Shown here one piece after another: positions 8,440 through 60,338 of a stretch of DNA of 64,000 nt. Position 1 is the first letter of the stretch. Each line of letters begins with the position of its first letter. The position numbers and the translations under genes were made by a program. The notes under the pieces were generated by a model. It saw only the letters and a program-made list of their open reading frames with translations. It was not told the origin of the DNA and made no database searches. Location: assembly GCA_964016885.1 (NCBI GenBank), contig OZ024740.1:91016001-91080000 (forward strand), written 5' to 3'. The DNA comes from Eledone cirrhosa. Lineage: Eukaryota.

Positions 8440-8443
<4 letters not shown>

Positions 8444-13682: not shown

Positions 13683-13702
13683 TAAACTAATTAAGTTAAT
13701 AT

Positions 13703-13745
<43 letters not shown>

Positions 13746-13846: not shown

Positions 13847-13851
<5 letters not shown>

Positions 13852-17834: not shown

Positions 17835-19265
<1,431 letters not shown>

Positions 19266-19552
19266 ATATATGTATGTACGTATACATATTTAGATCTGTA
19301 ACTTACATAGAGCACTCTTCTCTCCTATGACTTTTTTAATTTCCAACGGGAACTTCATTACTTATATATATATATAAGTATTGAAGATAAATATATGTAC
19401 AGATAAAAACACAAGCACAAAAGGATACATACACATACATGCGTACATACATACAAAAACACGCATGCATACAAACCATACCCATATATATACATAGATG
19501 TACATCTAATCAGACGCACGCACGCGACCATATCTATATATATATATAAGTA

Positions 19553-21227
19553 CAAATAAATTATCGAGAATTGGAACTTCGGCCCAGGAAATAACGAAAA
19601 ACAATCTTCGAAATGTGCGGCAAAGCGCTCAATGTTTCGGATAAACCAGAACTATAACTAACGTTTAATACCAACACACTGAAATGATGCTTAAACATTC
19701 ATTCGCACAGCCAAAAATACGACCAAGAAAATTCGGGTCAAACAAATAAAAATATATATGAATGAAAAAGTTACCCAGACCCCCTGGAAAGAAGGTAAAA
19801 CAAGCATTTGGGTTTCTGCGGCTCCTAAATCAGGTACCGTCCGCCTACATGAAAAATGTCCGGCTTCTGGTAAGATGATGAACAAGGAAGTTACTTTTTC
19901 AACAGGCCTTTATTTCAATAATACAGGAGACGACTGTTACTAAATACACGTGGGGACCAGCAAGGGAGGCAACCCCTATATTAGGCGAATGAATTCAGTT
20001 GTGTATATTATTGTAAGAATACAAAATATCACAAATCGAATTAGAGTTCTCAACAGACGGGTTAAAATTAACATGACCTATTCATCAGTCAATAGGATCA
20101 ACTAAAAAATAAAATTAACTGATCAATAGCTAGAGACTGCAAGTAAATACAAATAAATTATCGAGAATCGGAACTTCGGCCCACGAAATAACGAAAAACA
20201 ATCTTCGAAATGTGCGGCAATGTGCTCAATGTTTCGGAAAAACCACAGCTATAACTAACTTATATATATCAGTATGTAAAATACCTAAACGTAAGAACAC
20301 ACATATACATATACACGCACGCACACGAATGCATTCGTATACATATACAGACACGTATACACATATATGCACACATACACGCTTACATACATATACAAAA
20401 GCCAGCCCTATGAATAAATGGGTACAATATATAAGCAAGTAAACATACATAAAAGCGGCTGAGGGACAATAGAATATATCTGGAGTTAATAACACGAGTG
20501 ACATGTGATATAAGGTAGTGAAAGAAAAGGAGGAAGTAAAATATGTAAAATTGTGAAGATATAAAGTAAGTGAATCAATAGTGGATGTGAAGTAAACATA
20601 AAAATAAAAATAAAAATAAAAATTAAAATAAAAATAAAATAAATCAGAAAGGGAAGTCTGTAAAGAAGGTAAGTTAAGGAAAGCGAAAAACAAGAGTTTC
20701 TGGAGGCTAAGTATCTGAAAGTCAGTTAAGTTTATATGAGCTGGAAAGTAAGTGTGATTTCATGTGTGGGCAACTGGTGAACATTTTTGTTTTTACATTT
20801 AGGCAGGGTTTTGGTGATTTAGAACTTTGTAAAATCCAATATGTTTCACTTATGCAGAGTGCGCATCTTCTTGTTCCTCTTGCATATTCTTTAGATTGGT
20901 TCAAAATTGACCAATCTATTTTTTATTGGGGACCTTGGTCATTCAAATCCCATATTCTGCCAGCCAGAGCTGTTGTAAATCTTTTTTCAGGATGTCGGAA
21001 AGATACGACATGTGAGTAATAACGCGTTTTGAATTTGTTTTGTGTCATACCCACGTATCCTTCGCTGGTGGCTGGTAGGTTGTTGCTAGTGGTTGTCACA
21101 TTAGCCTCATATGTAATGGCTTTGGTGTTGCATTTACCTTGTAATGGGCATTCACTTTTGACTCTACAGGAGCAACCTTGATGTTCTCCGGGTATTTTCT
21201 TATTGAGCATATACGATTTAATAGAGG

Positions 21228-26501: not shown

Positions 26502-26505
<4 letters not shown>

Positions 26506-27723
26506 CATAAAAGCCCGGCGTTGCTCGTGGTCAGTAAGTTACCAAGGTTAGGTTGCACCACCCATTTTATGGCACCAGTTTTTTGTCTGCCAGGCACTGG
26601 GTGAATGAATTGCAGACCTGGACTGCCGAAGCAGGAGCTGCGCCAGCAGTGACAATTGTAGTTTCGCCTATCGATATTATCTCTGTGCAAAGAAGTGTTG
26701 AATTTTATTGTTTCACAGTACTTGCGCAACACGTGCGTAGACGAGGCCAGCCGAACAACAGAGCTGCGATTGAGTTGTTCTGCATGGTTGTCTAATGTGT
26801 GTTTTCTGAATTTAAGACAGTAGGGAGGGATGTGATACGGGGGAGAGTTAACTGCTGTTTCTAGCCGGTTTAGTGACCTCTTAGAGGAGATGATTTCTAA
26901 ATTTAAGACATTAGGGAGTGGTGTAATATGTGGGAGAGTTAGCTGATATTTCTAGCAGGTTTAGTGTCCTCATAGAGAATATTATTGTGTATAGTAAATG
27001 AACTAATACATCTTTCTTCCACGTTCGTTGATAGATTAAAAAAAAAAAGATTTATCGCTATTTTTGTTGTTGTTGAATAAATATATCTGTTGCTTTTGAA
27101 TATGGGGAGAGTTAGATGCTGTTTCTAGCAGGTTTAGTAACCTCATAGAGAATATGTTTTCTAAATTTAAGACATTAGGGAGTGGTGTGATAAGTGGGAG
27201 AGTTCTAGCAGGTTTAGTGACCTTATAGAGGATATTACTGTATATAATGAATGAACTGATACTTATTTATTCCACATTCGTTGATAGATGTTTTAAAAAA
27301 AGATTTGTCGCTAATTTTTTTGTTGTTGAATAAATTTATCTGTTGCTTTTGAATAATTGTTGTTTCGTATGAAATGTAGTTCTCTTTGTCATTAAATGGA
27401 ATAAATATTTGACCGTTCCACATTCAAAGACAAATGTTCTCTCTCTCCCTCTCACTTTCTCTCTCTCTCTCTCTCTTATAGTTTAAGGGGAGTAGAGAGA
27501 GGTAATCAGATTCTATTAGAGCGTCAAGCGTCATGTATTTAGTCTTATCGATTATTTCCGTAATTGTGGGTGAGTGTGAATGAAATAAATAGTCGTTGAC
27601 CTCAGACAACCATATACAACATTCTTACAGACTTTGAGTTGAATCGGTTTGAAATTGTGCAAATGTATAAACATGGAACATGCTCACACACACACACAAC
27701 AATACAAATCTGCCTTTTATAGA
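26502..27723 (-). mobile_element. Non-autonomous Helitron-like element, copy 1
   Basis: Homologous to 27727-28729; minus-strand 5' TC end at 27723; GC-rich subterminal hairpin; internal ~90-bp tandem repeats. Confidence 0.65.
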
Positions 27724-27726
27724 TAA

Positions 27727-28729
27727 CTAGCATTAAAGCCCGGCGTAGCTCGTGGTCCGTAAGTTACCAAAATTAGGTTACACCACCCGCTTTATGGCAG
27801 CACCTTTTTGTCTGCCAGGCACTGGGTGAATGAATAGCAGACCTGGACTGCCGAAGCGGAAGCTGCGCCACCAGTAACAATTGAAGTTTCGCCTATGGAT
27901 ATTATCTCTGTGCAAAGAAGTGTTCAAATTTATTTGTTTCACAGTATTTGAGCAACACGTGCGTAGACGATGCCAGCCGAATAACAGAGATGCGATCGAG
28001 TTGTTCCGCGTGGTTGTCTACTGTGTGTTTTCTAAATTTAAGACAGTAGGGAGTGGTGTGATATGCGGGAGAGTTAGCTACTGTTTCTAGCAGGTTTAGG
28101 GACCTCATAGAGGATATGTTTTCTACATTTACGACAGTAGGGAGGGGTGTGATATGCGGGAGAGTTAGCTGCTGTTTCTAGCAGGTTTAGTGACCTGATA
28201 GAGGATATTATTGTGTATTATAAATAAACTGATACTTCTTTCCTCCACGTGCATTGAGAGGTTTTAAAAAAGATTTATCGTTATTTTTGTTGTTGTTGAA
28301 TAAATGTATCTGTTCCTTTTGAATAATTGTTGTTTCGTATGAAATGTAATAAGTTCTCTTTGTCATTAAAGTAAATAAATGTTTGACCGTTTCACACTCA
28401 AAAAGAAACGTTCTCTCTCTGTTTCTCCCTCTCTCTTTTCCGCGTTCCTAAAGGAAGTTTGTAAGCATGTATGTAGATTTATCGGATTTTAAGGTAGTAG
28501 AGAGAGGTATCCTGATTATATTAGTGGGTTAAGCGTATTGTATTTAGCTTTATCGATTATTTCCGTATTTGTGGGTGAATTTGAATGAAATGAATAGTCG
28601 TTGACGTAAGTCTGACAATTTCCAAAACTCTTCCAGAGGTTGAGTTGAATAGGTTTGAAATTGTGCAAATGCATAAACATGGAACATGCACACACGCACA
28701 CATTACAACAGCAATCTGCCTTTTAGAGA
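27727..28729 (-). mobile_element. Non-autonomous Helitron-like element, copy 2
   Basis: Termini A|CTAG (27727) and GA|T (28729) correspond to 5'-TC...CTAG-3' on the minus strand; subterminal hairpin cccggcgtagctcgtgg. Confidence 0.7.
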
Positions 28730-28776
28730 TAATGATGATGATATATATACACACATAAGTATACACAAACACACAC

Positions 28777-29940: not shown

Positions 29941-33014
<3,074 letters not shown>

Positions 33015-35136
33015 CAGAATCGGCGCGAGTAACCGATCTGGGGACCTAACAAACTGCATAATAGGCAGTATGGATGTCGTGTCCCTGTATCCATATATTG
33101 ACGTGGATTTTGCTGGGGAGAAATGCGTAGAAATGATCAGCGAGAGCAAGGTTGAGTTCCGTGGGATTGATACCAGTGAGCTGGAACTTCTACTTAAGCT
33201 TACCCATAGTAATAGTTACCTAGACACTTATGACCTTTGCAACCTGTGCCCTACAAGACCAGCAAGAGGCAGACAACCTACCATTACCTCAATGGCCAAG
33301 AAAACCCACACAGATAGATGGAACGGGTGGACCAGAGCCATACGGACACGCGAAAACCACGATGAACTGAAGAAAATGATTGCACATGCGGTAGGGGTCA
33401 GCATAAAATTAACCCTTAAGGAACATATGTTCAAATTTAATGGTAAAACATATGCCCAAGAGGAAGGAGCAGCCATTGGTGTTAGCATTGCAGGCGACAT
33501 AGCTAACTTATTCATGGTATGGTGGGACAGTAGACTTAGACAAAAACTTAAAGAACAATTAGATGACAGCTTAACCCTGATAATGTACTCCCGCTACGTA
33601 GATGATATAAACATGGTAGTTAAGACACCCCCACTAAAGAACAGTCAGGAACTAGAGAAAAACACAATGGAAAGCATCCAGTAAATAGCAAACTCCATCC
33701 ACCAGAGCATTAGAGTTACTATAGACTACCCAAGTAGACACCCCAACCTTCGATTACCTGTGCTAGACACAGAGCTCTGGTTAGATACCATTAACAACCA
33801 AAAACAAATCCTCCATTCCCATTATTCCAAACCCATGACTTCCAAACATCTGATCCACCGAAACTCGGCCATTTCGGACCATACCAAAATCAACATACTG
33901 ATTGCGGATTTGGTACGGGTGATGAGAAATGTGTCCCGCATGTGCAACCCCGAAGAACTAGAGAGACACATACAACACTTCATCCACCGTATGCAGTTCT
34001 CTGGCTACAATCAGAGAGATAGAATCAGAGTGTATAGAGGAGCCAGAACCAAATGGGAAAAAATGGTAAATAATGACATAAATGGGACCTGCCCCTTGTA
34101 TAGGAGCAAAGTTTGGAATAGAATAGAAAGAACTAGGAACAAGGCCAATAGAATAAACTCATGGTATGATAGCAATAAATACCAGAGTGTAATGTTCATC
34201 AATACAACCCCTAGACGCGAACTAGCGTACACATTTAGAAGAGCCCTAAATAAACATAAACTCAATATTAAGATAGTAGAAAGACCAGGTACCTCCGTAA
34301 AAACACTTATTAGCAAGACATACCCGTTCCAAAGACCCTCATGTATAGATAAGAAATGTATAACCTGTAAAATAAGCCCCCATATTAACTGTAAAACTAG
34401 AAATGTAGTGTATAGCATAAGATGTACTGAAGGATAATGTAGAAACAAAAATATAGTGTACATTGGTGAGACAGCTCGTAGTATAGGGCAACGAATAAAT
34501 GAACACTGGCGAGACCTTCAATATAATTAAGAATCATCTGTGCTCTACCAACATGCTAAGATATAACACAGGGGTAAATTAGAGAACATAGAAATAAAAA
34601 TAGAATCTACACACAGAAAAGATGCAATGTTTAGGCAAATTACAGAGGCAGTCAGCATAAAAGAATTACAAACAAAATTAAATAGAAAATATTAGTGGAA
34701 CAGCAACATCACAACTTACAATTAAGGACAAAATGAAAACACACACACACATAGAACAAACAACCAACCAACAATAAATAAATAAATAAATAAACAAATA
34801 GATAAATGAACACAAACACACACAGACACCCGGATGTGACGCATGCGCAAACTGAGCACACAACACACACACAGAAACAAAATGGCGTAAGACGGAAGAA
34901 AGGAAAGGCACAGAAACAAAGAAAGGAATCCCCAGTCACTGAAGAGGTCACGGAGTGTGTGACGAAAGGACTATGACTATGTATAAACAACTATCTGGTT
35001 GTGGAACCAACCAACCAACCAGAAATTTATAAGTTTGTAGATTTGTAAATTCATAAATTTATAAATATATAATAAATTGAAGTGAAAGCATCTGGTGCGT
35101 GTGTTTCTTATTGGCAACATGACCCTCCCAAAGTAT

Positions 35137-35142
<6 letters not shown>
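33015..35142 (+). mobile_element. Inverted duplicate of the same PLE (right arm), with in-frame stops
   Basis: Reverse complement of 30155-32276; ORFs 32962-33684 and 33760-34437 end at premature TAA codons. Confidence 0.92.
34933..34979 (+). ncRNA. Minimal type I hammerhead ribozyme in the PLE pLTR
   Basis: agtca-CTGAAGA-g-gtcac(ggagtgt)gtgac-GAAA-ggac-TA-tgact; stems I and II pair. Confidence 0.8.
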
Positions 35143-35165
<23 letters not shown>

Positions 35166-35169
<4 letters not shown>

Positions 35170-35350
35170 ACGAAGAAACTGTGGTAAGGAACCAGGTGGT
35201 CCATAATGCAACAGAGATACTAAATACTTAGGGTAGTAGAATGTGTCATAGGAACATTTCCAAGACCCCGAAGGCAGACCTCAAGCCGTTTCGATGGATA
35301 TTTCTGGATGTCCAGAAATAGCTGCCTCGGGGTCTTGAACATTTTCCTAT
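35166..35350 (-). mobile_element. Fold-back half-hammerhead mini element, copy B
   Basis: Reverse-oriented homologue of 13847-14044, with one arm internally deleted. Confidence 0.75.
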
Positions 35351-35508
35351 GTATATATATATTAAATTGTTAAACAATATTCAATAATTATGTCAAAGAA
35401 TGAGTTTTACTGTAGATTGGAAGCACTCAACGAGAAAAATAATTTTCTGGAGTGATTAATATTAAAATATAAATATTAACAAAATAGATGTTCTTTTAAT
35501 CAATTACA

Positions 35509-35560
35509 TTTTATTATACATATTTCGGATGTACAACAGTACGTCCTCATCAGCCAAATA
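35509..35560 (-). ncRNA. Hammerhead ribozyme motif (stem I weak)
   Basis: CTGATGA-ggacgtac(tgtt)gtacatcc-GAAA-tatg-TA. Confidence 0.65.
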
Positions 35561-36311
35561 TAATGATACATGACATACCCTGAGATGTTAAATGGTTAAG
35601 ATTTAATCAAGGTAATGATTAACCCGATAGAATATTTTGCTTCTATGAAAGTGCTTACGTGAAAGTGCAAAAACATAATAAATTCATTAGAGAATGTGTG
35701 AGTAAGAAAAAACGTTGCAAACTGTAAGTGTTCTAAACATTTTTTAAATAGATGATACTACAATATATCTAGGAAAACGTCTCATGAATCATAACAGCCA
35801 GTGATAGCGACTGTAAACAAGATTTATAAGGAGGGAAAAATAAAGTATGGGGGATTTTTTTGAAAGTTAGATTTGAAAATATTTAATTTATAATATTAAG
35901 GTGAAGACTCCAGATTTCAGGATTATTTGCTAGTTATTTATATATTATTTATATAAATTCGATAAGTGTGTTATCATTTTTAAATTTCTGAATTGTGAGA
36001 ATAACATTTAAAGGATTTAGGTGGCACATAAATAATGAAATATTATACTGTTGATTATTTACCTAAATCTAAATTTAACAAATATACCAACATATTAGGT
36101 ATGTAAAGTTTTTGAAGTACTTATTGTTATAAATATTTAAATAACTATTATGTATATTGGTATATATTATTGAGCCAGTATATTTAATGTAAATAATACC
36201 GACGAAGATAAAGATAAAATAATATGTTAAGGATAAATATATACATATGTATAACTGGGTGTAAATGTATTAATATTCTTCAACCAATATATCAACATAT
36301 TATTAAATATA

Positions 36312-36505: not shown

Positions 36506-37958
36506 GGTATAGGGATTCATATATGTAGATATATATTAGTTATTATTAGTGTAGTATACTTTAAGTAAATGATAACAGTTATACTTTTATCAACGTGTTA
36601 CATTTAAATATATATATATATACATATAAGAAAAACAGAGTTCAAAATAATGTCTATAATGATTTTTAGTTTCGATATTATCTCTATATTTGAATAATAT
36701 ATATAGAAATGGGGTAGGTATATATAAAAATATTTAAAAATATATAAAATATAATATATAACTACATATATATTATAATGCATTATATTATAAATGAATA
36801 AATAATAGATCAAAAGTACAGCGAAAAATTCATATTTATATATAAGTTTGAATCCGTTTCAAAATTCAGATTTTATAGTGCAGTAAGTATATTTAAAAGA
36901 AATATATGCTATATTATACTGTAAATAGTACATCAAAAACTCATAAAACATTTGGAGTTATAGATGAGTTTCATACACCTTTTTGGATTGGGTGTTAAAA
37001 ATTTAATTAAAAAGAGATCACAAATGTATTAAAAATTCACAGTTAAATAAATTCGATAAATATGTAAGGATTAGGTATTGTACGAGATTATTGATATAGA
37101 TAATGTGTTAAATAAATGATGCTGTTGAACAGAGTTAACAAATAATGTTGTGGTAATCAATGTTTAGGCATGCTAATTGAAATATATTCATTCATTCTAA
37201 CATTGTTTTTTTTCTATAGATAGTTATAACATAAAGCAATATTAAAGGCAATTGATGTTTTTTACTGTTGATTATATATTCCTGATAACCGAGTTGTTAT
37301 TGGTTCTTTCTTTCTCGTTTTATGTGAGGCTAAAGAAGTGGACGTAGCTTTATGGAGGCAATTAGAGAATAATTCACTTTTTTTGTTAATTAGAGTCTCA
37401 TAATTATTAATAATCAACAGGGTCTCCATTGTACAGAGCGAGCAGCTATTTGATGAAATTTAGGTAAATAATCAACAGTATAATATTTCATTCTTTATGT
37501 GCCACCTAAATCCTTTAAATGTTATTCTCACAATTCAGAAGTTTAAAAATGATAACATACATATCGAATTCATATAAATAATATATAAATAACTAGCAAA
37601 TAATCCTGAAATCTGGAGTCTTCACCTTAATATTATAAATTAAATATTTTCAAATCTAACCGTTTAACGTTCCCCCACACTTTATGTTTCCCTCATAAAT
37701 CTTTTTCCAGTGGCTATCACTGGCTGTTATGATTGATGAGACGTTTCCCTAGATATATTATAGTATCGTATATTTTAAAAACTTTTAGAACACTTACAGT
37801 ATGCAACGTTTTTTCTTACTCACACACTCTCTAATGAATGTAATATGTTTTCGCACTTTCACAGAAATAGGACATAAGCAAAATCTTCTATCGGGTTAAT
37901 CACTACCTTGATTAAATCTTAACCATTTAACATCTCTGGCTATGTTATGTATCATCAT

Positions 37959-38010
37959 ATTTAGTCTGATGAGGACGTACTGTTGTACATCCGAAATATG
38001 TATAATAAAA
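37959..38010 (+). ncRNA. Hammerhead ribozyme motif (stem I weak)
   Basis: CTGATGA 37966-72, stem II ggacgtac/gtacatcc, GAAA 37993-96, TA 38001-02. Confidence 0.65.
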
Positions 38011-38050
38011 TGTAATTCATCAAAAGAACATCTATTTATTAATATTTATA

Positions 38051-38096
<46 letters not shown>

Positions 38097-39825: not shown

Positions 39826-40004
39826 CATACATATATATATATATATAAATATATATATAGTTTTAATATAGAGATTTCTGATGATTTCTAAAGAATGAAA
39901 CAGTTCCAGTCCTGTAGAATCTCATTTATATTAAAACTTTTATACTCTGCATTGTACTGAGTACCTTACTTACTGTGGTTACCTCCGACTTAACCCGGAA
40001 TAAC

Positions 40005-40091
<87 letters not shown>

Positions 40092-40462: not shown

Positions 40463-40467
40463 ATATA

Positions 40468-41013
40468 AAACAAAATATCAGTGATGCATCTGAACTCAAT
40501 TTATTGTGTGTTACAATAGTTCCGTCGGCGGACCGCTAGTGACGCGATCATTGTGTGGATCTGTCTGATTCTGGACCCGCAGGTTCGACGGACACGTCTA
40601 AATATTTCGGAGCATATTCTTCCACTGGGGTATCTGACCTTGTGGGCCAGTACTGTCAAACACTTCATCCTATTCGCGCGTCCACTGATTGGCCGCTGTT
40701 TGTCTATGTCATCATAAATACTGACTACAGGTATTATTTCGCTGTCGCATGTCTGCTACGCTTCAATGAATTACTGCTGTGTTTGGTAGTCCACACATCC
40801 ACCCGCGCACTCACACCCACACACACACACACATCCACATAGATACCGACAGTCGTGCGCATAGGGTCCCGCTATACCCACACATGAAGTAGATAATATA
40901 AACATATAAACATTTGCATACATTCATCCGGAGAGGAACGTATATACATAGACACAAATGCCTTACACCAATTGGGCGCACCCTTTCTTGTATAGAACAC
41001 TGTGTATCTCTAT
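40468..41013 (-). repeat. Unclassified GC-richer repeat, copy 1
   Basis: Reverse complement of ~46300-46815. Confidence 0.75.
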
Positions 41014-41021
41014 GTGCCGTT

Positions 41022-44000
41022 CAGTGGCGTAACTAGGGATTTGGGGCCCGGGGGCAAGCTCGAACTTTGCTCCCAACCCCCAGTAATTTAAGTTACACGA
41101 AAAAACATGAATATATGATCTAAAATTACTTTTATAAAATTAATATGGAAAAATAGAGTAAAAATATATTTACAAAGAGATTTTTCCTAGCTTTAGCTGA
41201 TGCAAATTGATCGACTATTTCCTCAAAATCTGTTACTTCGCATTCTATGCTTAGGATGGCAAGACCACGCAGACGGCTTTGAGACATTGATGTCCGCAAA
41301 TATGATAAGATGAGGTTGAGCTTGCTGAAGGATCTCTCACAGCTTGCGACGGAAACGGCCATTGTTCGCATTAACTGTAGACCGATGCGCAAATTCGGAT
41401 ACACTTTTGTCTCCGTACTGAACAATAACATTCAGGAGTTGTTCTGGTATTGAGACTGAAACATTTGCGCGGGTTGACAACAACGCCCGACAGGCAACGA
41501 TTTCTTCAAAAAGTTCCTTGCCGTCAATGTCTGCATTGTTGTGATCAGCTAACAAAGAGCATTTTGATAGAAGCGCGAGGTCGTCTGGAAAAGGTGAATA
41601 GCACAGAGAGTGGACATCGAGGAAGAAGCCAAACCTCGCGTCAATATCGCTGAGAAGGGCGAATGGTAGCTGCATTTCTGGTTGAATTCGAAGGAGAAGA
41701 GTTTGCATGACTGGTTTTACTTCACTGGCTGGTGATAGTAATTCATCTTCCGCGACTTAACTCAATAGCTTTATTAAGTGCTTGCTGCGCAATAGTACTT
41801 CCATTAACCGCGAAATATTGCTGGAGGGCCTTTTTGTCTTCAACGGAATCCCAGAAGTTCATTGTTGGATCTTGAAGGCGTTTCTGAACCCGATCGATTC
41901 GAGCCAGAATCCTATTCCAAAATACAAGCAACACGAAGAAGTGGAAGACAAGCATTTGGCTAAAAAGATGTTCTGCATCACATCGTGTGTCGGATATCTC
42001 CTCATCATCTACCAACTTTTGCAGAAGCTCAAGGTTTTCATTCAGAAAGTTTGCAAGATGCTTTACAGCATATGCTCTTGCGCTCCACCATGTGTCCGAT
42101 GGAGATTTCAGAACAAAACGGATTGCTTGCTTTAACTTTTCCTAACGCGAAAAGAACGCAAAAGATGACTCCATGACGTTGAAAAATGACATAACTTTGA
42201 AGCTACTCTTCGCTGCGGTCAAACCAACGAAATTAAGTGAATGGTTGTCACATTTAACATATATCGCCTTTTCGTTCAAATTCCGTTCAAATTTGTTATG
42301 CGTTGTTGAAACCCACTGGTGTGTCCGGCAATTCCCGCAGCCTTGTCGTAACATTGCGCCTTGCAATCACTCAGCGCATGGCCATCATCTGTACATTCTT
42401 TCAAAATAAGTTCTACCATACTGGTTGCATCATTCTCTTCCAGTAGGGTGAACCCTAGAAAGGACTCTCGGATGCGAACGGTCCTTTTGTCGAAATCAAC
42501 ATCGACATACCTCACCACTCGTGACAACTGGTCTCGATGAGCTTGAGCAGGAGATGAGTCCACCATCAGCGCATAATGACGGGCATTATTTACGCGTCAA
42601 AGAACATTCTTCTTGACGTTGAGAGCATGTAGATGTATGAATTCATTTCGGATTGTGGGGGAGAGGTACGACGTGGAACCTCGATGAGTTTCCGCATTAC
42701 TTAGAAACTCCTTTGTCACAGGATCTTATGACAGCAACTTATAAACCGATGAAGTTCCCAGCATTGGTCGTTTCGTTTTGCTGGAGCGATTCGCGATGAC
42801 CCCTTAATGCAAGATTATGTGACGCAACAAACTTGATGCATTGTAGAAGTCCAGAGAGGATATCGCGCCAACTTTGCTTCTCGGTTGTTATTAGTGATTA
42901 AAACTGTGCATCGATAATTCCTTGCTCTTTTGCCAAACTGCGTTTCATCTCTTTCCACTGTGTGAAACAGCGCAGATGATGAAGACTGTTCTCATGCAAA
43001 TCCATTTTCTCTGGCTTCATCCAGTTGCTGAACACTTTTTCTTGTTCAAGTGCAGAATTGAAACTCGAACCGGAGAAAAGAAGGCAGCAAAAGCAGAATG
43101 CCGACTGTTTGTATGGGGAGTACAGAACCCGCGATCGCGTGATTTCTTCGCCCTGGCCGTGCACAAATTGCGGCCAAACCAACTTCTTGTCATCGAGCGA
43201 TTACTACTTTGTGCAAATGGACCATCAGTATTCTGGAAGTACTTCCAACCAAGTTGCACTAACTGCACTCTTAATGAATCAGGTACAAGTGGTTTTCTGA
43301 TTACTGTGTCAAACTGAAGAAGTCTAATGTACTGTTGAATGACGTCAGGAATTACGGGTTCAGATTCATCTGATTTACAGGGCGCGGGTTTTAAGACAAT
43401 GCTGCGACTCATTGATGCCTTCTGAGGAAGATGAACATGATGAAGCCTCGCAGCTTGGACGCTCATCAGCATGAGTAGGAAGAGAGGAACAGGACGTAAT
43501 AGGTTGAGTAAAAAAGGACAGGATAACTTGGCTAGATTTCATGGCTTTTTCTTTCTGCAACTTCCGCCTTCTCCGTCCTTCGGCTCCACTTCCTTCATTG
43601 ATGACAGTCCGCTTCATGATTATACAAAACTCCTACAAAACAATAAATGAATGCATTTTCAGAACGACAGTTTTAACTACAAAAGAACTATGCTAGTATC
43701 TTAATGAAGAGATTGGTTATAGTGATCACAAGGCACTATTGTTGCAGTAAGATAAACAAACTGTTATATTCTGGTAGGAAGATTGTTTAAGACTTTGGTA
43801 TTTACTTATTGCATAAGTAAATACCAAAGTCTGCATGATTTATGTAATGCATTCATGAATTGTTCAGTTAAATCAAGACCGTTAATTCAAGGAACAAAGC
43901 GATTCCATATTTGTTCTTGGTTTCCAAAAAAAGAGTTCATTTTGAGAATAAATCAGCAGTTAGTCATATTTTGTGGGTTTGGACTACACGTATGAAGAAA

Positions 44001-45191
44001 TTCTTTAGAAAAGCTAAGTTATAGAGCACAAACAATTGATGGGCTAATGTATTGAGCAACGGAAAACATAAGTTTTTATTCATGCACAGTAAAAAAGAAA
44101 ATAATTCACTCAATTCAAAAGGAACTTACGGAGTAAGAGCGCACAACCGCACAGTGAAAAACTGTTCTTGCAAGGGACTTACAACCACATTTGGTAGGAG
44201 GTTCATTGAGCTTATTTATTCCTGTTCATTCATGCTGTACTTACAGCCAATACTTCACACCTGACCTCAAAGCGCCCCCTGCTATGCAAACAAAACGTAT
44301 AGGCACGCCTAGTGCACGCACACACGTGCACACGTGCAGGCATGTACAGTCTACTGAACACACACATGTAACGAATAATCCAATTGTAACGGAGGTGAAT
44401 AGATGGTATGATGGTTCAATGTAAAGAATAATACCAGGATTGTGTTGTTACAATGTTTATTTTCTTATAACAATATTCAAATTGATGATTGAATAATAAC
44501 ATCAATAACATGAAATATTCGTACAATAAGTAGGTGGCTCGTCGAGCTACCTATTTATTGTAAATCACAGAATACTATATAATATAATTCGTATTGTATC
44601 TCAAAGATACAAAATGACAAACAGAAATCGTGCGTGTAAAATGAAAACAATGTGAACTTACTATGTGGGCAGACTGTTTTTTCCGTGACGAGAGCATGTA
44701 AATGCGACCTGTCTTGTCTGTAGTCTCACTTTTTCTACCGCTCGTAAACAACCCTTTTATTTATAAGGGCTGAAGTTGGAAGGATAGATATATCATCTGA
44801 CCTTTGGTTAGCATCTCCCAAGGGGTTGGTCTGCCGGGCGTAAACAACCCTTGTATTTATAACGGTTGAATTTAGAAGGGTGGATATATGGGACCTCTTT
44901 TCTGCCAGGCGGAAACAACATGTGACCTGTGTTTAGCATCTCCCAAGGTGTTGGCCTGACGGGCGTAAACAACTAACCACGGCTTGTCCCAGAGGCGTGA
45001 AAGCTCAGATTCGGTTTCGAAACTTCGCCGCCGTTATAGACACGTCACGCGCGAAAATGCGGGTATATTGTTTTCAAAGTTTGCAGCAACCAATCTTGCT
45101 TCAATGTTTAAGTGAACAATCTTGGTCAATTTTGAGCCCCCCTCAAAACGGCAACCGGGAGCACGTGCCCCCATTCAAAGTTACGCCGCTG
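41022..45191 (-). mobile_element. Full-length hAT DNA transposon
   Basis: TIRs cagtggcgtaact / agttacgccgctg; 8-bp TSD gtgccgtt at 41014-41021 and 45192-45199; subterminal cgtaaacaac repeats at 44740-44975. Confidence 0.95.
41132..43617 (-). pseudogene. hAT transposase (ZMYM1-like: TTF zinc finger, catalytic domain, dimerisation domain), frameshifted
   Basis: AFCFCCLLF, YLSPTIRNE, MVDSSP, CDNHSLN, TWWSA (RW motif variant), SVASCERSFSKLNLILSYLRTSMSQSRL. Confidence 0.9.
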
Positions 45192-45426
45192 GTGCCGTTA
45201 TATGTATATGTTTAATATTTTTAATATAGTTAATATTTTTAATATTTTGATATATTTAATATTTAATTTTTTTTTTATATATATGTATCTGCGTACATGT
45301 ATGTATATATATATATATATATGCGTATGTACGTATTTTTTTATATGTGTACATGTTTACAACAAGATGCATCCTTTCATGTATGACCCATTGTGTATCT
45401 TTATATGACTTTGTGTCTATATTCTG

Positions 45427-45516
<90 letters not shown>

Positions 45517-45718
45517 GGTGTGTGTGTGTGTGTGTAGGAGGTGAGTTTCATTGTAGCACAATAAAGCAATGCAAGTGTTTTTTAAGATTCAAAACATGTC
45601 TCCCTATTTTATCTGAAGAGAACGCAAATATCATCCCGTGATGATATTTGTTTTTGAAAAGCGCATAATAAAATAGATGGAACTCTTTTAACCATCTTTT
45701 GATTTTATACTATATATA

Positions 45719-45900
45719 TGGAGTGTGGCAGAGTGGTTAGAGAATTGGATTCGCAATCGTGAGGTTGTGAGTTCGATTCTTAGACCAGGCGATGCGTTAT
45801 GTCCTTGAGAAAGACACTTTATTTCACGTTTCACCTTCTACCTGGAGTTGCAACCGATAGATAGTATTAGCAATTGGAAAGACCAATGGAAACATTGTTT
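45719..45900 (+). mobile_element. tRNA-derived CORE-type SINE
   Basis: gtggcagagtggttagag...gagttcgattc head followed by the gtccttgagaaagacactt core. Confidence 0.7.
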
Positions 45901-46059
45901 TCTCGGTCCGATTTGACGAAAGTCGATCGTTTAAAATATATTTATATATATAATATTATTATTTGTTTTGTATATATGTTTTTATGCGTCGTGGGTGTGT
46001 ATGGGAATATGCGGGTATTTGTAGGAGTGTATATGGTATTGTGTGTGTGTGTGTGTGTA

Positions 46060-46106
46060 TGTGTGTCTGTGTGTGTACAAGGACCCCTGTAGAGAGAGGG
46101 CTTGTT

Positions 46107-46144
<38 letters not shown>

Positions 46145-46815
46145 TGTTTACGAGCCAGTGCGTATCTGTGCGTGTATATTTATATGGGTACATGTGTATA
46201 TATGTGTGCTTGCGTGGGTGGAGGAGGTTGGGGTACGCATACATGTATGTACGTGTTTGTGTGTACGTGTATACATACGCGTATGCATGTGTATGAGCTT
46301 GTGTGTGTGCGTGTTTATGTAGATAGGCCTGTGGGCTTGTGTATGTGTATATACGTGTCTCTCCGGATGAATGCATGCGAATGTTTATAAGTTTATATGT
46401 TCTCCTTAATGTGTGGGTATAGCGGGAGTCTATGCGTACGGCTGTCGGTACCTATGTGGTTGTGTGTGTGTATGTGTGTGGGTGTTAGTGCGCGCGTGAA
46501 TATGTGGACTACCAAACACAGCAGTAATTCATTGAAGCGTAGCATAAATGCGACAGCGAAATAATACCTGTAGTCAGTTTTTATGATGACGTAGTCACCC
46601 AGTGGCCAATCACTGGACGCGCGAATAGGATGAAGTGTTTGACAGTACTGGCCCACAGGGTCAGATACCCCAGTGGAAGAATATGCTCCGAAATCATTAG
46701 ACGCGTCCGTCGAACCTGCGGGTCCAGAATCCACAATGATCGCGTCTTGAGCTGTCCGCCGGCGAAACAATTGTAACACAATACATTGAGTTCAGATGCA
46801 TCACTGATTTTTCGT
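46060..46815 (+). repeat. Unclassified GC-richer repeat, copy 2
   Basis: Inverted homologue of 40468-41013. Confidence 0.75.
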
Positions 46816-46900
46816 TTTATATTATATCATACTCTGCTCTGTAAGATCATAGAGTGCTCAACCGGCATACCGCCTATGGATGCATCTTAGCTACCATCTG

Positions 46901-49211: not shown

Positions 49212-49620
<409 letters not shown>

Positions 49621-49864: not shown

Positions 49865-49867
<3 letters not shown>

Positions 49868-51797
49868 TTATAATTGGGGAGGGTCATATTTGTATAACGT
49901 TGCCAGAATTAATAACAGAACACACTCACAGAAATTGAAAGATCAACGAGAAGATCTCCACCCAAAATGAGGGAGCAGCCATCGGCGTCAGCATAGATGG
50001 TGATGTTGCCAAACTTTTCATAGTATGGTGGGAAAGGAGACTTAAAGATCTCCTTAATTAGAGCTCCATAGACCTCATCATGTACTCTCGTTATGTAGAC
50101 GATATCAATATAGTTATAAGAACACCCCCACTAGAGAGCACTAACAAGTTTGATTTAGAACGTAACACGATGGAAAGCATCCAGCAGATAGCTAGTTCGA
50201 TACACCAGAGTATAACTGTAACTATCGACTTCCCTTCCAAACACCCTAACAATAGACTATCTGTATTAGACACAGAACTCTGAATTAACACTATAGACGA
50301 GAGAGTCCAAATTCTCCACTCACACTATGCGAAGCCCATGGCCTCCAAATACCTGATACTCAAAAACTCAGCAATATCCAGTAGTGCTAAGTTTAATATT
50401 CTGATCGCAGATTTGGTAAGAGTGATGAAGAATGTGTCCCGTTTGTGCGACCCAACCAAAATGGAAAGACACATCCAACACTTCATCAACCGCATGCAGT
50501 TCTCTGGCTACAACCAACGAGACAGAGTCAGCGTATACGAAGGAGCCATAGAGAAGTATAAGACCCTCATAGAACTGGACATGAAAGGAAGTTGCCCATT
50601 ATACAGGAGCAAATCATGGAATAGCTTAGATAAGGCTAGACATACGATAGGGAAAGCCACCTCATGGTACGACAACCAGATATACCAGAGTGTCATGTTT
50701 GTGGACGCCACCTCTGGAGGGAAATTAGCTAACCAGTGTAGAAAGGCCCTGAGAAAGACCCACTTAAAAATAAAGGTGGTAGAAAAGCCAGGAACCACCA
50801 TAAAATCCTTGATCAGCAAAACCTACCCTTTTAAGAAAACCCACTGTACCAATAGGAAATGTATCATATGTAAGGTGAACCCCCGGATAAACTGTAAAAC
50901 TAGAAACGTAGTCTATAGCATAAGATGTACAGAGGGTACTTGCAGAAACATGACAACAACATACATAGGTGAGACAGCTCGTAGCATAGGTGAAAGGATA
51001 GACCAACACTGGCGGGAACTAAAAGGACGAAAAAACGGGTCAGTACTATACGAACACGCTAGAAAACAACATGACGGTAACATAGACAACATAGAAATTT
51101 GAATAATATCTAAACATAGAAATGACACAGCAGATAGGCAAATCAGAGAGGCCAGTGAAATAGAAATTAGAAGACCAAGACTAAACAGAAAGAATTAATG
51201 TAATAACAACAACAACACTCAAACAAACAACACTGACCTAAGAGAAGTATAAATAAGTAAATAGGGTATAATAGGTTAATAAATAAATACATACACAAGC
51301 ACAATAACAACAGGCACATAAACACACACTAGTCACCCATCACACAGCAAGCAAAACACTATACACACACGCAAACGCATGCGCAAAGAAGACAAAATAA
51401 AATAAACAAACAAGCAAATAAATAAATAAATATATAGACAGACTGAATAAAAATGGCGTAGACATACAATACAACAGGAGGAAAATATAACACCACTGAC
51501 GATGTTGCAGATGTGCAACGAAACATTTATGATAAACTATATATATGTGTTTGTGTCTATATTGTATTTGTATTATTTTTGACCGTCGATCAGTCAATGG
51601 CAACATTGAGGACCGAGTAAGTTAGATTACCGATATGAAAGACACAGAAGCGAGAAGCGAAAACCAACAAAACAGAGAGTGTGTTCTGTTATTAATTCTG
51701 GCAATATTACACAAATATGACCCTCCCCAAGTATAACAATATTTGTTTCGACACACGATTTCATATAAAAAACCTCGCAACACTAATTCATCGCCAC
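49865..51797 (+). mobile_element. Second Naiad-like PLE family, 5'-truncated, with a short inverted pLTR
   Basis: YSRYVDD, VLDTEL, CKTRNVVYSIRC, YIGETARS; 49865-49928 is inverted relative to 51677-51740; 3' end similar to the 30-35 kb family. Confidence 0.9.
51491..51534 (+). ncRNA. Minimal hammerhead ribozyme in the pLTR, slightly eroded
   Basis: acca-CTGACGA-t-gttgca(gatg)tgcaac-GAAA-catt-TA-tgat; same relative position as 34933-34979. Confidence 0.7.
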
Positions 51798-51809
51798 TAT
51801 ATATATATG

Positions 51810-51862
<53 letters not shown>

Positions 51863-53130: not shown

Positions 53131-53192
<62 letters not shown>

Positions 53193-53195
<3 letters not shown>

Positions 53196-53744
53196 TGTAT
53201 GTATATATATACATACTAGTGTACGTCTATATACATATATGTATGTACGTGTACATACTTATATTTAAGTAACAGCCGTACTAAGTGTGGGAAATGAAAT
53301 TTCGTTTCATTTTTTCCGTTTATCGTTTTCGGTGCACCCGGCCGATTATCCCACTCGATATGCAAATTGGGCTACTCAGCCTTTAATATGCCTAAGGTAA
53401 GTATATACGTTCAACAATTTGGCTGGAAGGTATATGTTGCTGACGATAGCTAATAAGCTTGAAACTAGTACAGCGTTCCTTTGTCAGTGTTGAACAAACG
53501 AGCAACGATGGTTGCTAGACACTACGGCTTAATTCGGTATGTGTGTTTACAATCACACCGAACATTATAATAAATGTTCGGTGAATCCATAGGTGCATTT
53601 ATATATGTGTGCATGTATGTATATATATATATACATACTACTGTACGTCTGTATACATATATGTATGTACATGTACATACTTATATTTAAGTAACAGTCG
53701 TACTAAGAGTGGAAAATGAAATTTCGTTTCATTTTATCCGTTTA
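53193..53744 (+). mobile_element. ORF-less partial tandem (~417-nt unit) with a central hammerhead; retrozyme-like
   Basis: 53193-53322 is repeated at 53610-53744; related pieces at 8340-8410 and 17835-19265; in (TA)n. Confidence 0.75.
53434..53476 (+). ncRNA. Minimal type I hammerhead ribozyme
   Basis: atgttg-CTGACGA-t-agct(aata)agct-t-GAAA-ctag-TA-cagcgt; palindromic stem III ACTAGT, GUA cleavage triplet. Confidence 0.8.
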
Positions 53745-53757
53745 TATATATATATAT

Positions 53758-56809: not shown

Positions 56810-57003
56810 ATTACGAAGGATTTGTGGCAAGGAACCAAATGGACCATAACGGACCAGATTACTCAATACTTAGGGTAGTAGAATCGGTAACAGGAAGAAG
56901 TATGACCCCAACGGCAGAGCTCAAGCTGTTTAGACGGCTATTTCTGGACCAGAAATAGCCGTCGAAACGGCTTGAGCTCTGCCGTCGGGGTCACACTTGT
57001 TCC

Positions 57004-57006
<3 letters not shown>
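56810..57006 (-). mobile_element. Fold-back half-hammerhead mini element, copy D
   Basis: Reverse-oriented homologue of copies A and C. Confidence 0.8.
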
Positions 57007-57038
<32 letters not shown>

Positions 57039-57692
57039 TTCCTGATGACGGAATGATTTTCTATATGTTTCTTCGGAAAATATATTTACTCCATTCCAGA
57101 AACTAATTAGTTGGAAGTGATTTTTTAGTAAGTAAGTTAATTTTATAATTTTCTTATTTTACGTCTATCATATTATTGTTCTGCAACCCCATGCATTGAA
57201 CCACATTGTTAATAAGACAAAACCTATATATTTGCTAGCATTGATATGCATCTGTGTGTATATAAATGTTACTAGATATTAATTCCTTATAATTATCTCC
57301 AATTCATTTGTCGAGCAATATTTGGCCATGACTGCTACTATGGTAGTAAGCTGGCCGCTGTCTTAATAACCACTCGCTTTCCACTGATTGACCTCGATGT
57401 CACGTGATTGATTCTTTTTGAATGTGCCACAGACGTAGAGGCAGTGATTTTCTCAATGGCTTGGAATCCAGTCCACACTTCGCTATTTCCATTCCACTGA
57501 ATTATATTTTTAATAAGTTTCCAGTGTCCTCGCTATGCCTGGAGACCTATACGGAAAAAGACTTTCCTGATGACGGAATTATTTTTTATATGTTTCTTCG
57601 GAAAATATATTTACTCCATTCCAGAAACTAATTAGTTGGAAGTGATTTTTTAGTAAGTAAGTTAATTTTATAATTTTCTTATTTTACGTCTC
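57039..57692 (+). mobile_element. ORF-less partial tandem (525-nt unit) bounded by two hammerheads; retrozyme-like
   Basis: 57039-57167 is repeated at 57564-57692; CTGATGA at 57042 and 57567; (TA)n on both sides. Confidence 0.8.
57561..57643 (+). ncRNA. Type I hammerhead ribozyme (a second copy at 57039-57118 has a truncated stem I)
   Basis: actttc-CTGATGA-cggaat...attcca-GAAA-ctaattag-TT-ggaagt; palindromic stem III. Confidence 0.75.
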
Positions 57693-57719
57693 TCAAATAT
57701 ATATATATATATATATATA

Positions 57720-58324
57720 TGGTGGCTGCCAACTCGTTTTCAAGTACGGCCACTACTTTATAGCCATGCAGGAGAACGCCCATCGATGCGCTGAACGAGC
57801 GTGACTTTTTAGTCCAGCCAGCGACTTGAAAACTCTGGTACAAACACTATACTTGTGACAATTATTGATACACAGAGCTGGGCCCCTGGTACCATGTGAC
57901 GACAAGTGCAGAGAGATCTCCAGATATAAAGCAATGCCTGTGCAGTGAAGCTTTTATAGTGAGTAAAGGCACTGCACAAAGCCAGTCCCACTCTTTTAAC
58001 CAATATGATATTTACCAAAAAGAAGAAGTCAACATCACTGGATACTATAAGGGTTGCAGGTGTTATATCAGGATTTTCCTTCTCCTTGAATTCTGCCTTG
58101 ACAATGGCTAAGGGGTCATCTCTCCCGGTGATTGTGCATGGCCATTGACTCTTAATAGCTCATTTGCCCTTTGAGCTGTTTTGTTTTTTGTCCTGCAGGA
58201 TGTCGAAAGTCACCCTCCTCACCAAGCAAACTTGGTGGGGTTGCCAGTTTAGTCGCCAACAAACCCGACCACGAGACAGGTTGTACTGGGATGCATGTTA
58301 CCAGTAGCACCAACTGGTGACCTG

Positions 58325-58384: not shown

Positions 58385-58386
<2 letters not shown>

Positions 58387-59093
58387 GAGTGTTGAAAGAT
58401 CACTGATGAAGGACCACTTTATTCATATGTAACCCATTTGCAACTCCGCAGCACGTTTATTCTCATATTTACACTTATTTGTTCCCCTCTGTGACCCGTC
58501 TATTTCGGTCTTACTGCTTCCTCTTTCTCTGTATATTTACCCTCTCTAACAGTCACTCTCTGTGTTAGCCCCTTCCTCACCCTTCACTCACTCACTGTTA
58601 CTACCTCTGCCCCTCCTCCTTCTTCCCGTTTGACCTGTGCGTAATTCTTTTCTTTCGCACGCTTGGCCAAGCCGCCGGCATTTTTTCTCTCTCTCGTCTA
58701 CGATTTCACAGAACTTATGTTTACCGAATTCGCCGACTAGACCCCTTCTTCCTCCCGTTAGACCTGTGCGAAATTACTTTCTTGCTCACATTTCAACCAG
58801 GTTTGATGATCTTTATTGTCCCTCGTTCACGATTTCACCGAACTTATATTCATAGAAATCTTTGGACTTGACTCGCTCTTCCTCACTTTTCTTTGCTTCA
58901 CCATATTTGTTTGTTTACACTCTCGCTGTTCCCTTTATTTACATGTCCCAACGACTTTGTTTAGCCGTTGCTCGCACCAACCGGGGGTATGTAGTATTTA
59001 AAGCGAAGAAATACCTATGATGGTTGGAAGATCACTGATGAAGGACCACTTTATTCATATGTAACCCATTTGCAACTCCGCAGCACGTTTATT

Positions 59094-59096
<3 letters not shown>
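58385..59096. mobile_element. Non-coding element with 70-bp terminal direct repeats in (TA)n
   Basis: aagatcactgatgaagg...cacgtttattct at 58397-58463 and 59028-59095; internal ~130-bp duplication at 58615-58850. Confidence 0.65.
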
Positions 59097-59161
<65 letters not shown>

Positions 59162-60147: not shown

Positions 60148-60338
60148 GATAAGATTCAGGACCCTATGGCTGAGCTTCGGCCGTTTCGACAGCTATATCC
60201 GAACAGTTCGTATATAGCTGTCGAAACGGCTGAACTCAGCCGTTGGAGTACTGAATCTTTTCATATTACAAAGTCTACTAACTTAGTATCGAGTACTTTG
60301 GTTAGTAATGGTCTAATTAGTTTGTACCACATCCTATA

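What the first reader, a model, noticed from the sequence alone, without database searches (positions are those of the whole stretch)
57039..57692. Retrozyme-like unit 2: 525-nt unit bracketed by two hammerheads
Seen: ~130-bp near-identical direct repeats, each holding CTGATGA, a ~50-nt stem II, GAAA, palindromic ACTAATTAGT and a GUU site. Cleavage sites 57112 and 57637 are 525 nt apart. There is no ORF, (TA)n lies on both sides, and the sequence is unrelated to unit 1. As in unit 1, the 5' boundary falls at the stem I/core junction. Inference: an independent circRNA-type replicon; the palindromic stem III would let the two HHRs cleave as an intramolecular dimer.
Basis: partly seen in the sequence, partly recalled or inferred. 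Interest (0 to 1): 0.78.

Follow-up and report, generated by a model that had tools for sequence, protein, structure and literature searches.

The report
Penelope-type hammerhead retrozyme, truncated copy
This is one clipped copy of an abundant, non-coding 525-base repeat in an animal genome that carries a predicted self-cutting hammerhead RNA and was likely pasted in by the enzymes of Penelope-type jumping genes, so it is a new example of a known kind of element (a retrozyme), not an independent replicon.

Summary
Observation confirmed, with corrections. The repeats are 135-136 bp (131/135 identical), period 525, each holding a type I hammerhead motif; the right end is about 57695-57698, not 57692. 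Public reads show a large, diverged, non-coding family whose unit closes head to tail. Core, stem II, palindrome and cut site show almost no common variant; N7 and loops vary. A C·A opposition replaces G10.1-C11.1 family-wide. Copies share one fixed 3' end about 60 nt past the cut site, followed by (TA)n (15 contigs in one run, 2 in another sample), just upstream of a conserved AC-loop hairpin. That matches the internal reverse-transcription start described for a Penelope element. The claimed 5' boundary did not recur in four runs. At this locus the left ribozyme keeps only 4 stem I pairs, so a 525-nt product from this copy is doubtful. Best reading: a non-LTR retrozyme likely mobilised by Penelope-like elements, probably from a circular RNA. 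Cleavage, expression and circles are untested. 'Independent replicon' is unsupported; 'pLTR of a coding PLE' is unlikely. Novelty: new member of a known kind.

The parts
57038..57698 (+). Whole insertion, about 1.26 units of a 525-nt non-coding repeat, between (TA)n tracts
   Evidence: right end fixed by the family 3' end
57038..57173 (+). Left repeat (5'-clipped hammerhead plus the 58-61 nt after the cut site)
57563..57698 (+). Right repeat
57038..57118 (+). Left type I hammerhead: 4-nt remnant of stem I 5' strand (57038-41), core 57042-48, C57049·A57098 opposition, stem II 57050-55/57092-97, UUCG hairpin 57063-85, GAAA 57099-102, palindrome 57102-111, predicted cut after 57112
   Evidence: conservation
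57550..57655 (+). Right type I hammerhead with full stem I (6 bp 57561-66/57638-43, internal loop, distal 6+3 bp), core 57567-73, 5-bp stem II (copy-specific change at 57580), palindrome 57627-36, predicted cut after 57637
   Evidence: variants
57113..57637 (+). Predicted 525-nt monomer, cut site to cut site; 34.5% GC; folding z = -3.2
57170..57173 (+). Internal copy of the family's fixed 3' end (ATAT, merges with the TA target); same site as 57695-57698; likely reverse-transcription start
   Evidence: 15 contigs in X3 and 2 in X5 stop at 57173 and go on in (TA)n
57178..57201 (+). Stem-loop with AC-rich 6-nt loop just 3' of the fixed end; candidate binding or initiation signal for the PLE protein
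   Evidence: fold; 4 of 4 variable sites lie in the loop
57384..57419 (+). Block kept in diverged copies: two TGATTG around an E-box-like GTCACGTG (motif names recalled); candidate internal promoter element
   Evidence: depth peak; 20-nt exact match at the same spacing from the ribozyme in an X7 contig
57011..57037 (.). (TA)n target, left flank (shared with an unrelated hairpin element at 56811-57004)
57699..57720 (.). (TA)n target, right flank

Best explanation
This is a 5'-clipped, 1.26-unit genomic copy of a high-copy, non-coding 525-nt repeat family with a conserved type I hammerhead motif and one fixed 3' end in (TA)n, likely a non-LTR retrozyme copied by the reverse transcriptase and endonuclease of a Penelope-like element (PLE) from a probably circular RNA. 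Steps: (1) intact multi-unit copies are transcribed, perhaps from an internal promoter (inferred). (2) Neighbouring hammerheads pair through the palindromic stem III and cut at GUU, and a host ligase closes the 525-nt monomer (inferred from coral, mussel and axolotl retrozymes). (3) A PLE protein nicks (TA)n and starts reverse transcription inside the RNA about 60 nt 3' of the cut site, beside an AC-loop hairpin (fixed end shown; enzyme inferred). (4) It copies across a cut-site junction, once round the unit and across the junction again, and stops 4 nt into stem I (two junctions crossed: shown; circle rather than uncut linear multimer: inferred). This copy has since decayed by about 1.5% and is probably a poor source of monomer.
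For: Family: 1,434 contigs in X1 and 5,767 reads in X9 lie on the unit, all 30 bins covered in 3 of 4 runs; 1,144 of the 5,767 reads join the end of the stretch back to its start (sum of ten rows, up to 60 start places in one row); the loose ends in the middle read as diverged homologous sequence. 150 X10 reads run from the ribozyme into the unit's own upstream sequence, and one 587-nt X5 contig fits the same period. Ribozyme constraint: seven positions in 57042-57118 vary at 10% or more, all in N7, the stem II internal loop or the lower hairpin; none in the other core bases, the 6-bp stem II, GAAA, GUU or proximal stem I (P=4e-4, set drawn after seeing the data; one row dropped, see evidence against). 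Variant alleles keep pairing: 57565 U·G to C-G, 57554 G·U to A-U, 57552 C-G to U·G. Fixed 3' end: 15 of the 101 partly laid contigs in X3 and 2 of 7 in X5 (another sample) stop at 57173 and continue in (TA)n. The window's coding PLEs end the same way, at an internal ATAT followed by (TA)n. In the anole PLE, reverse transcription starts internally, 3' of the hammerhead cut site, in an AC-rich stem-loop, on AT-rich DNA (PMC11167929). One template: both repeats carry the minor allele T at 57122/57647 (A in 93% of X3 depth and 100% in X5, X6), and their four differences look copy-specific.
Against: No cleavage, transcript or circle has been shown. G10.1-C11.1 is replaced by C·A, GUU is a weaker triplet than GUC (recalled), and Rfam does not recognise the motif. 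One palindrome row, 57108 T>A in 4 of 18 X10 reads at a place where most reads of that run end and in no contig, was left out of the conservation count; 57067 and 57068 vary although they pair in my drawing of the lower hairpin. The apparent A-U to U-A change at 57558/57647 is unphased and its two frequencies differ. Only 1 of 9 predicted Xenopus retrozyme dimers cleaved in vitro (10.64898/2026.07.22.740005). In the anole PLE, uncut RNA was the dominant template and ribozyme mutants did not change insertion, so a circle is not required. No PLE in the window resembles the unit, so the partner is unidentified. A second fixed end (the PLE 'tail') was not among the 23 of 251 loose-end rows shown. 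Arrays of more than two units were not shown: no listed piece spans the stretch. X1-X3 may be the sample the window came from.
Confidence: 0.6

Rival explanations
1. Same family and same PLE enzyme, but the template is an uncut linear transcript that starts near the 5' edge of a hammerhead and runs through the next one. The 5' boundary then marks the transcription start, the 1.26-mer is a near full-length cDNA, and circles are a side product or absent.
For: Uncut RNA is the dominant substrate for the anole PLE in vitro. Four unrelated elements in this window begin within 20 nt of a hammerhead-type core: 57038 (-4), 12815 (+1), 58391 (-12), about 39858 (-20). In the 632-nt unit the start lies 23-28 nt after a TATA-like motif of the right copy. 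A conserved promoter-like block lies 150-180 nt upstream of the core.
Against: For this family the 5' end did not recur: zero depth on the TA flank in 4 of 4 runs, and no depth step at 57564 in X9 (418 against 415). The 422-nt unit starts far from its ribozyme. The four cases were picked after the fact, and the 632-nt unit has no GAAA after its core.
Confidence: 0.2
2. The repeats are the pseudo-LTRs of a coding PLE, and this locus is an internally deleted or 5'-truncated partial tandem of it.
For: (TA)n target, fixed internal 3' end and partial tandem are PLE features. An extra base after A9 and a long stem II resemble PLE-type hammerheads (PMC4209133). Retrozymes are proposed to descend from pLTRs.
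Against: No ORF over 69 aa; best non-self tblastn hit of the middle to the window E=0.10; no DNA similarity to the window's PLE ends. The unit closes on itself in many diverged copies and in runs labelled as other organisms. Descent from a PLE stays possible; being a fresh fragment of one is unlikely.
Confidence: 0.08
3. The hammerhead is a non-cleaving relic or serves only as a protein-binding fold; the repeat spreads without self-cleavage.
For: C·A at 10.1/11.1, GUU triplet, stem III probability 0.2 in the isolated right ribozyme, active fold 2.5 kcal/mol above the minimum. 8 of 9 predicted Xenopus dimers did not cleave.
Against: Catalytic bases are constant while N7 varies, in four runs. 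An axolotl hammerhead with a U·U at the base of stem II cleaves, better as a dimer (PMC7229834).
Confidence: 0.09
4. An independent circular-RNA replicon (viroid-like, RNA-to-RNA) that left occasional DNA copies.
For: Unit folds more stably than 100 of 100 shuffles; unit length lies between two predicted cut sites.
Against: Many diverged genomic copies with PLE-type ends; hammerhead on one strand only; no ORF; no family member in the metagenome or viral contig scans.
Confidence: 0.03

Closest known systems
Metazoan non-LTR retrozymes (Cervera and de la Pena 2020, PMC7229834, parts 2-4 of 6 read; Li, Clavereau and Pollet 2026, 10.64898/2026.07.22.740005, parts 1-3 of 5 read)
   Same: Non-coding head-to-tail unit, one type I hammerhead per unit, GC under 50%, dispersed high copy number, co-occurrence with PLEs. 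Closest ribozyme: axolotl HHR_Amex2 (2-bp stem III with tetraloop, mismatch at the base of stem II, better as a dimer).
   Different: 525 nt is above the 150-450 bp of the 2020 paper but inside the 51-972 bp of the 2026 survey. The mismatch is C·A, not U·U; stem II carries a long insert with a UUCG hairpin; the triplet is GUU. A fixed 3' end beside an AC-loop hairpin is not described for retrozymes in the parts read. Expression, cleavage and circles are untested here.
PLE pseudo-LTRs and their hammerheads (PMC4209133, parts 1-2 of 4; anole Poseidon PAc, PMC11167929, parts 1-2 of 4; Craig et al., 10.1101/2021.04.23.441226, passages)
   Same: (TA)n or AT-rich target, partial tandem with clipped 5' end, fixed 3' end downstream of the ribozyme cut site, AC-rich stem-loop near that end, palindromic stem III, a base between A9 and the first G-C pair of stem II.
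   Different: No RT/GIY-YIG ORF; no inverted 5' arm at this locus; second fixed end (tail) not shown; an extra A also precedes G12; stem I is long, with a distal helix.
pDo500 satellite of Dolichopoda cave crickets (PMC2837043, passages) and newt satellite 2 (PMC2114352, abstract)
   Same: Roughly 500-bp (463-505) or 330-bp hammerhead-bearing repeat; ribozyme more conserved than the rest; single and double hammerhead folds proposed.
   Different: Sequence not compared here; those are shown to be transcribed (and pDo500 to cleave); long arrays are not shown for this family.

Membership tests
Non-LTR retrozyme | Type I hammerhead motif in each unit | tested here: met
   conserved across copies (with the C·A deviation below)
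Non-LTR retrozyme | Head-to-tail repeat with at least two ribozymes | tested here: met
   1.26 units at this locus; junction shared by 1,144 of 5,767 X9 reads; longer arrays not shown
Non-LTR retrozyme | No protein-coding ORF | tested here: met
   longest frame 69 aa; no PLE protein remnant
Non-LTR retrozyme | No primer-binding site or polypurine tract | not tested
   no scan run
Non-LTR retrozyme | Short, low-GC, self-paired unit | tested here: met
   525 nt, 34.5% GC, z=-3.2; above the 2020 size range, inside the 2026 range
Non-LTR retrozyme | Many dispersed genomic copies | tested here: met
   copy number itself not measurable (no assembly held)
Non-LTR retrozyme | Two consecutive complete ribozymes at the locus ('active' copy of Li et al.) | tested here: not met
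   left stem I cut to 4 bp, P=0.00; lowers 'active copy', not family membership
Non-LTR retrozyme | Self-cleavage in vitro | not testable with these tools
   needs bench assay
Non-LTR retrozyme | Expressed as linear and circular monomer RNA | not testable with these tools
   no RNA data could be laid on the unit
Non-LTR retrozyme | Target-site duplication | tested here: inconclusive
   both flanks are (TA)n
Canonical type I hammerhead | C3 U4 G5 A6 N7 G8 A9, G12 A13 A14, A15.1-U16.1, NUH | tested here: met
   only N7 varies
Canonical type I hammerhead | G10.1-C11.1 pair closing stem II | tested here: not met
   C57049·A57098, no variant at 10% or more; C kept in 5 of 5 loose-end consensuses that reach it; so a variant, not a canonical motif
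Canonical type I hammerhead | Loop 1-loop 2 tertiary contact | not tested
   internal loops exist in stems I and II; contact not modelled
Pseudo-LTR of a coding PLE | RT and GIY-YIG ORF between or beside the repeats | tested here: not met
   unit closes on itself
Pseudo-LTR of a coding PLE | Fixed 3' end at an internal site, AT-rich target, variable 5' end | tested here: met
Pseudo-LTR of a coding PLE | Second fixed end defining a tail | tested here: inconclusive
   not among 23 of 251 loose-end rows shown
Plant LTR retrozyme | Type III hammerhead in LTRs | tested here: not met
   strand order is type I
Viroid-like autonomous circular RNA | No DNA stage | tested here: not met
   many genomic copies

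The most novel reading that the evidence does not exclude
Retrozymes in this genome carry the whole PLE cis-signal set in one unit (promoter block, hammerhead, AC-loop initiation hairpin) and are copied from an uncut primary transcript whose start sits at the 5' edge of the hammerhead, so insertions run from transcription start to a fixed initiation site like a miniature LTR element; the C·A-closed, UUCG-extended hammerhead is a slow, dimer- or protein-gated switch tuned to stay uncut until reverse transcription has passed.
Probability: 0.15. Interest if true: 0.65.

Novelty: new member of a known kind. Interest (0 to 1): 0.36.

Why it matters
That PLEs mobilise animal retrozymes is proposed from co-occurrence and pLTR likeness in the papers read, not shown from insertion ends. 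This family adds a fixed 3' end about 60 nt past the ribozyme cut, next to a conserved AC-loop hairpin, the same layout found biochemically for an anole PLE, and so names a testable initiation signal. It also offers a natural hammerhead with a fixed C·A at 10.1/11.1. The class is known, and earlier unchecked notes of this scan describe several younger families in the same genome with clearer footprints, so the added value is modest.

Tried and rejected
No assembly is held, so copy number and end maps rest on reads and contigs only. No RNA holder listed. Summed contig depths were not used as copy numbers. Rfam: no hammerhead at E up to 1 in the window or up to 10 on the unit. Pattern scans: 0 in metagenome contigs and 0 in viral contigs for the ribozyme; 4 hits for the conserved block, all lacking any further similarity or ribozyme, so chance. 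An alternative register using the GAAA at 57601 gives a 4-bp stem II but no stem I, and was rejected. Bacterial promoter and terminator scan: chance level and not relevant. No octamer motif in the unit; eight runs of four or more T argue against a full-length Pol III transcript (Pol III rule recalled). The circular monomer folds at -114.9 kcal/mol, 60% paired, without a shuffle control. No earlier finding matched by place, sequence or relatives. A C·A at 10.1/11.1 was not seen in the listings or passages from searches. The paper most likely to list such variants (Lunse et al. 2017, recalled) is not held, the supplement of PMC7229834 could not be read, and the supplements of the 2026 preprint and of PMC4209133 were not seen; this family or this variant may be in them. 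Searches (ribozyme or retrozyme with octopus or mollusc, a guess at the host that I did not establish) listed no paper on such a family by title or abstract start. PMC1636495, PMC11300833 and PMC544870 (passages) gave nothing on GUU or C·A.

Full report
Setting. The window is AT-rich DNA with 63 (TA)n tracts and several retroelements, among them Penelope-like elements (PLEs). Frames at 32917-34437 and 50284-51102 are 61% identical over 218 aa and carry a Cys-rich linker and GIY-YIG-type motifs (read; motif names recalled). Pfam support is weak: RVT_1 at E=7e-4 and GIY-YIG at E=5e-4, in 2 of 7 frames scanned, both below the curated cut-offs. No assembly is held and the organism was not established; an earlier unchecked note calls it a cephalopod.

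Observation. The two repeats are 57039-57173 and 57564-57698, 131 of 135 identical, offset 525. Each has the type I hammerhead strands in order, with predicted cuts after 57112 and 57637. My descriptor finds 8 sites in the window and 1 in 30 shuffles; the strict form finds only these 2 and none in 30 shuffles. It was written after seeing the site. No frame exceeds 69 aa, and the unit resembles none of 13 other elements tested in the window.

Ribozyme anatomy. The right ribozyme has a 6-bp stem I, an internal loop and a distal 6+3-bp helix. A C·A opposition stands where G10.1-C11.1 is usual. Then follow a 5-bp stem II, an internal loop and a UUCG hairpin; stem III is 3 bp with an AAUU loop, and the triplet is GUU. 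In isolation this fold scores -13.8 against a minimum of -16.3 kcal/mol; proximal stem I and stem II pairs have probabilities 0.6-0.8, distal stem I 0.3-0.7, stem III 0.2. The left ribozyme keeps 4 stem I pairs with probability 0.00. The palindromes form a -9.0 kcal/mol duplex against +1.5 for the hairpin and pair with P=0.85 in the whole locus, but neither cross stem I forms. Constrained energies are: free -150.5, both sites as a dimer -136.2, both as monomers -129.7, single sites -138.6 to -143.3. So dimer cleavage is the better bet for the family, but this copy is handicapped.

The family. Eleven runs were listed and eight laid. On the rotation 57168-57692, 1,434 contigs (X1), 5,767 reads (X9), 54 contigs (X4, another organism label) and 4 contigs (X7, another label) were laid. 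1,144 X9 reads join the right end back to the left, with several alleles at the joint, and one 230-nt X7 contig spans ribozyme, joint and middle with 7 differences. On 57029-57215, 985, 36, 2,155 and 18 records were laid (X3, X5, X10, X6). 150 X10 reads go on from the ribozyme into the unit's own upstream sequence, and a 587-nt X5 contig fits the same period. The loose ends in the middle read as homologous, diverged sequence. The 525-nt unit therefore closes on itself in many copies; it is not a one-off deletion or the edge of an ORF. Arrays longer than two units are not shown, since no listed piece spans the stretch. X1-X3 may be the source sample; X5, X9 and X10 are other samples.

Selection on the ribozyme. 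One search lists all 23 rows at 10% or more. In 57042-57118 seven positions vary: N7, three in the stem II internal loop 5' side, 57067 and 57068 in the lower hairpin, and 57089. None lies among 50 positions of core, stem II, upper hairpin, palindrome and proximal stem I (P=4e-4). Two cautions apply. I drew that set after seeing the data, leaving out the lower hairpin. I also dropped one row, 57108 T>A, seen in 4 of 18 X10 reads where most reads of that run end and in no contig. The C and the A of the mismatch do not vary, so it is a family trait and not decay. Alleles at 57565, 57554 and 57552 keep pairing. The alleles at 57558 and 57647 would swap A-U for U-A but are unphased (which shows 40 of 133 rows). 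An axolotl hammerhead with U·U at this place cleaves, better as a dimer. Other motifs in the window have U·U (39878, 53440) or C·U (13361) there.

Ends. Fifteen of 101 partly laid X3 contigs and 2 of 7 in X5 stop at 57173 and continue in (TA)n; an X6 piece also stops there. The window copy stops at the equivalent 57695-57698, 58-61 nt past the cut. The window's PLEs also stop at an internal ATAT before (TA)n, with a second end about 58-60 nt further on. Just 3' of the fixed end lies a hairpin (57178-57201) whose four variable sites all fall in its AC-rich loop (P=0.0014, post hoc). For the anole PLE, reverse transcription starts inside the RNA, 3' of the hammerhead cut, in an AC-rich stem-loop, after cleavage of AT-rich DNA, and genomic ends fall on those sites. 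The 5' end behaves differently: no record in 4 of 4 runs covers the TA flank at 57029-57035, and X9 depth is flat across 57564. Within the window, four unrelated elements do begin within 20 nt of a CTGANGA core and one does not, which keeps the transcription-start rival alive.

Template. A copy that starts 60 nt past a cut site and crosses two junctions cannot come from a cut linear monomer without template jumps; it needs a circle or an uncut multimer. Both repeats share a minor allele at 57122/57647. Their four differences look copy-specific: 57580 (G in 205 of 207 and 186 of 194 reads), 57586, 57167 (T or C in 953 of 959) and 57696. They were probably identical when inserted. That suits one circle, as proposed in PMC4209133 and PMC7229834, but also a homogeneous source dimer, and uncut RNA was the main template for the anole PLE. 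I put about 0.8 on a PLE-mobilised retrozyme and about three to one on the circle within that.

Comparison and verdict. The element meets the sequence-level features of non-LTR retrozymes and works like a non-autonomous PLE. It is not a canonical hammerhead at 10.1/11.1, not an 'active' two-ribozyme copy at this locus, and not the pLTR of a coding element on present evidence. Papers seen: PMC7229834 parts 2-4 of 6; 10.64898/2026.07.22.740005 parts 1-3 of 5; PMC4209133 and PMC11167929 parts 1-2 of 4; passages of 10.1101/2021.04.23.441226, PMC2837043, PMC1636495, PMC11300833 and PMC544870; abstract of PMC2114352; no supplements. Earlier AI notes on this genome describe similar families; they are leads, not support. 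New member of a known kind; interest 0.36.

Noticed in passing
window 12815-13711: Partial tandem, period about 547, with a hammerhead of similar build at 13361 (long stem II, C·U at its base, palindromic stem III); the left copy starts at U4 and lacks C3. Octamer-like motif at 13322 (-).
   Followed up: partly
window 58385-59097: TA-flanked partial tandem, period 632, with CTGATGA in both repeats but no GAAA after it; left copy starts about 12 nt before the core, 23-28 nt after a TATA-like motif in the right copy's upstream sequence. May be a permuted or broken hammerhead.
   Followed up: partly
window 39847-40005: Short TA-flanked element with one hammerhead (39878, U·U at the base of stem II) whose 5' end sits at the foot of a long stem I.
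   Followed up: partly
window 30097-35140, 49865-51813, 8441-8923: Penelope-like elements with inverted 5' arms and two fixed ends about 58-60 nt apart; minimal hammerhead-like motifs at 34939, 51496 and 8750.
   Followed up: partly
window 13850-14056, 35169-35322, 49335-49537, 56811-57004, 60162-60332: Five copies of a small TA-flanked element: a GC-rich palindrome of about 120 nt plus an 80-nt tail on one side, like a miniature two-armed PLE-type insertion. One copy shares the TA tract left of this finding.
   Followed up: no
window 53175-53745 and 17833-19244: 422-nt unit with a hammerhead at 53440 and an octamer at 53360; related inverted arms around a long TA tract at 17833-19244.
   Followed up: no
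window 35330-36068 and 37458-38059: Inverted arms of about 600 nt, each with a hammerhead-like motif (35553 -, 37966 +), ends about 95 nt apart.
   Followed up: no
window 19549-20259 and 26504-28732: Further TA-flanked partial tandems (period 597 with a 112-nt repeat; period about 1,225 with internal 91-nt repeats); no hammerhead found by my descriptor.
   Followed up: no
window 52502 (+) and 63332 (-): Single hammerhead motifs about 55-60 nt from cut site to a (TA)n tract, the same spacing as in this family.
   Followed up: no
window 40463-46822: Inverted repeats of about 500 nt around broken frames (41337-43538) that look like a DNA transposase (impression from motifs, recalled, not tested).
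   Followed up: no
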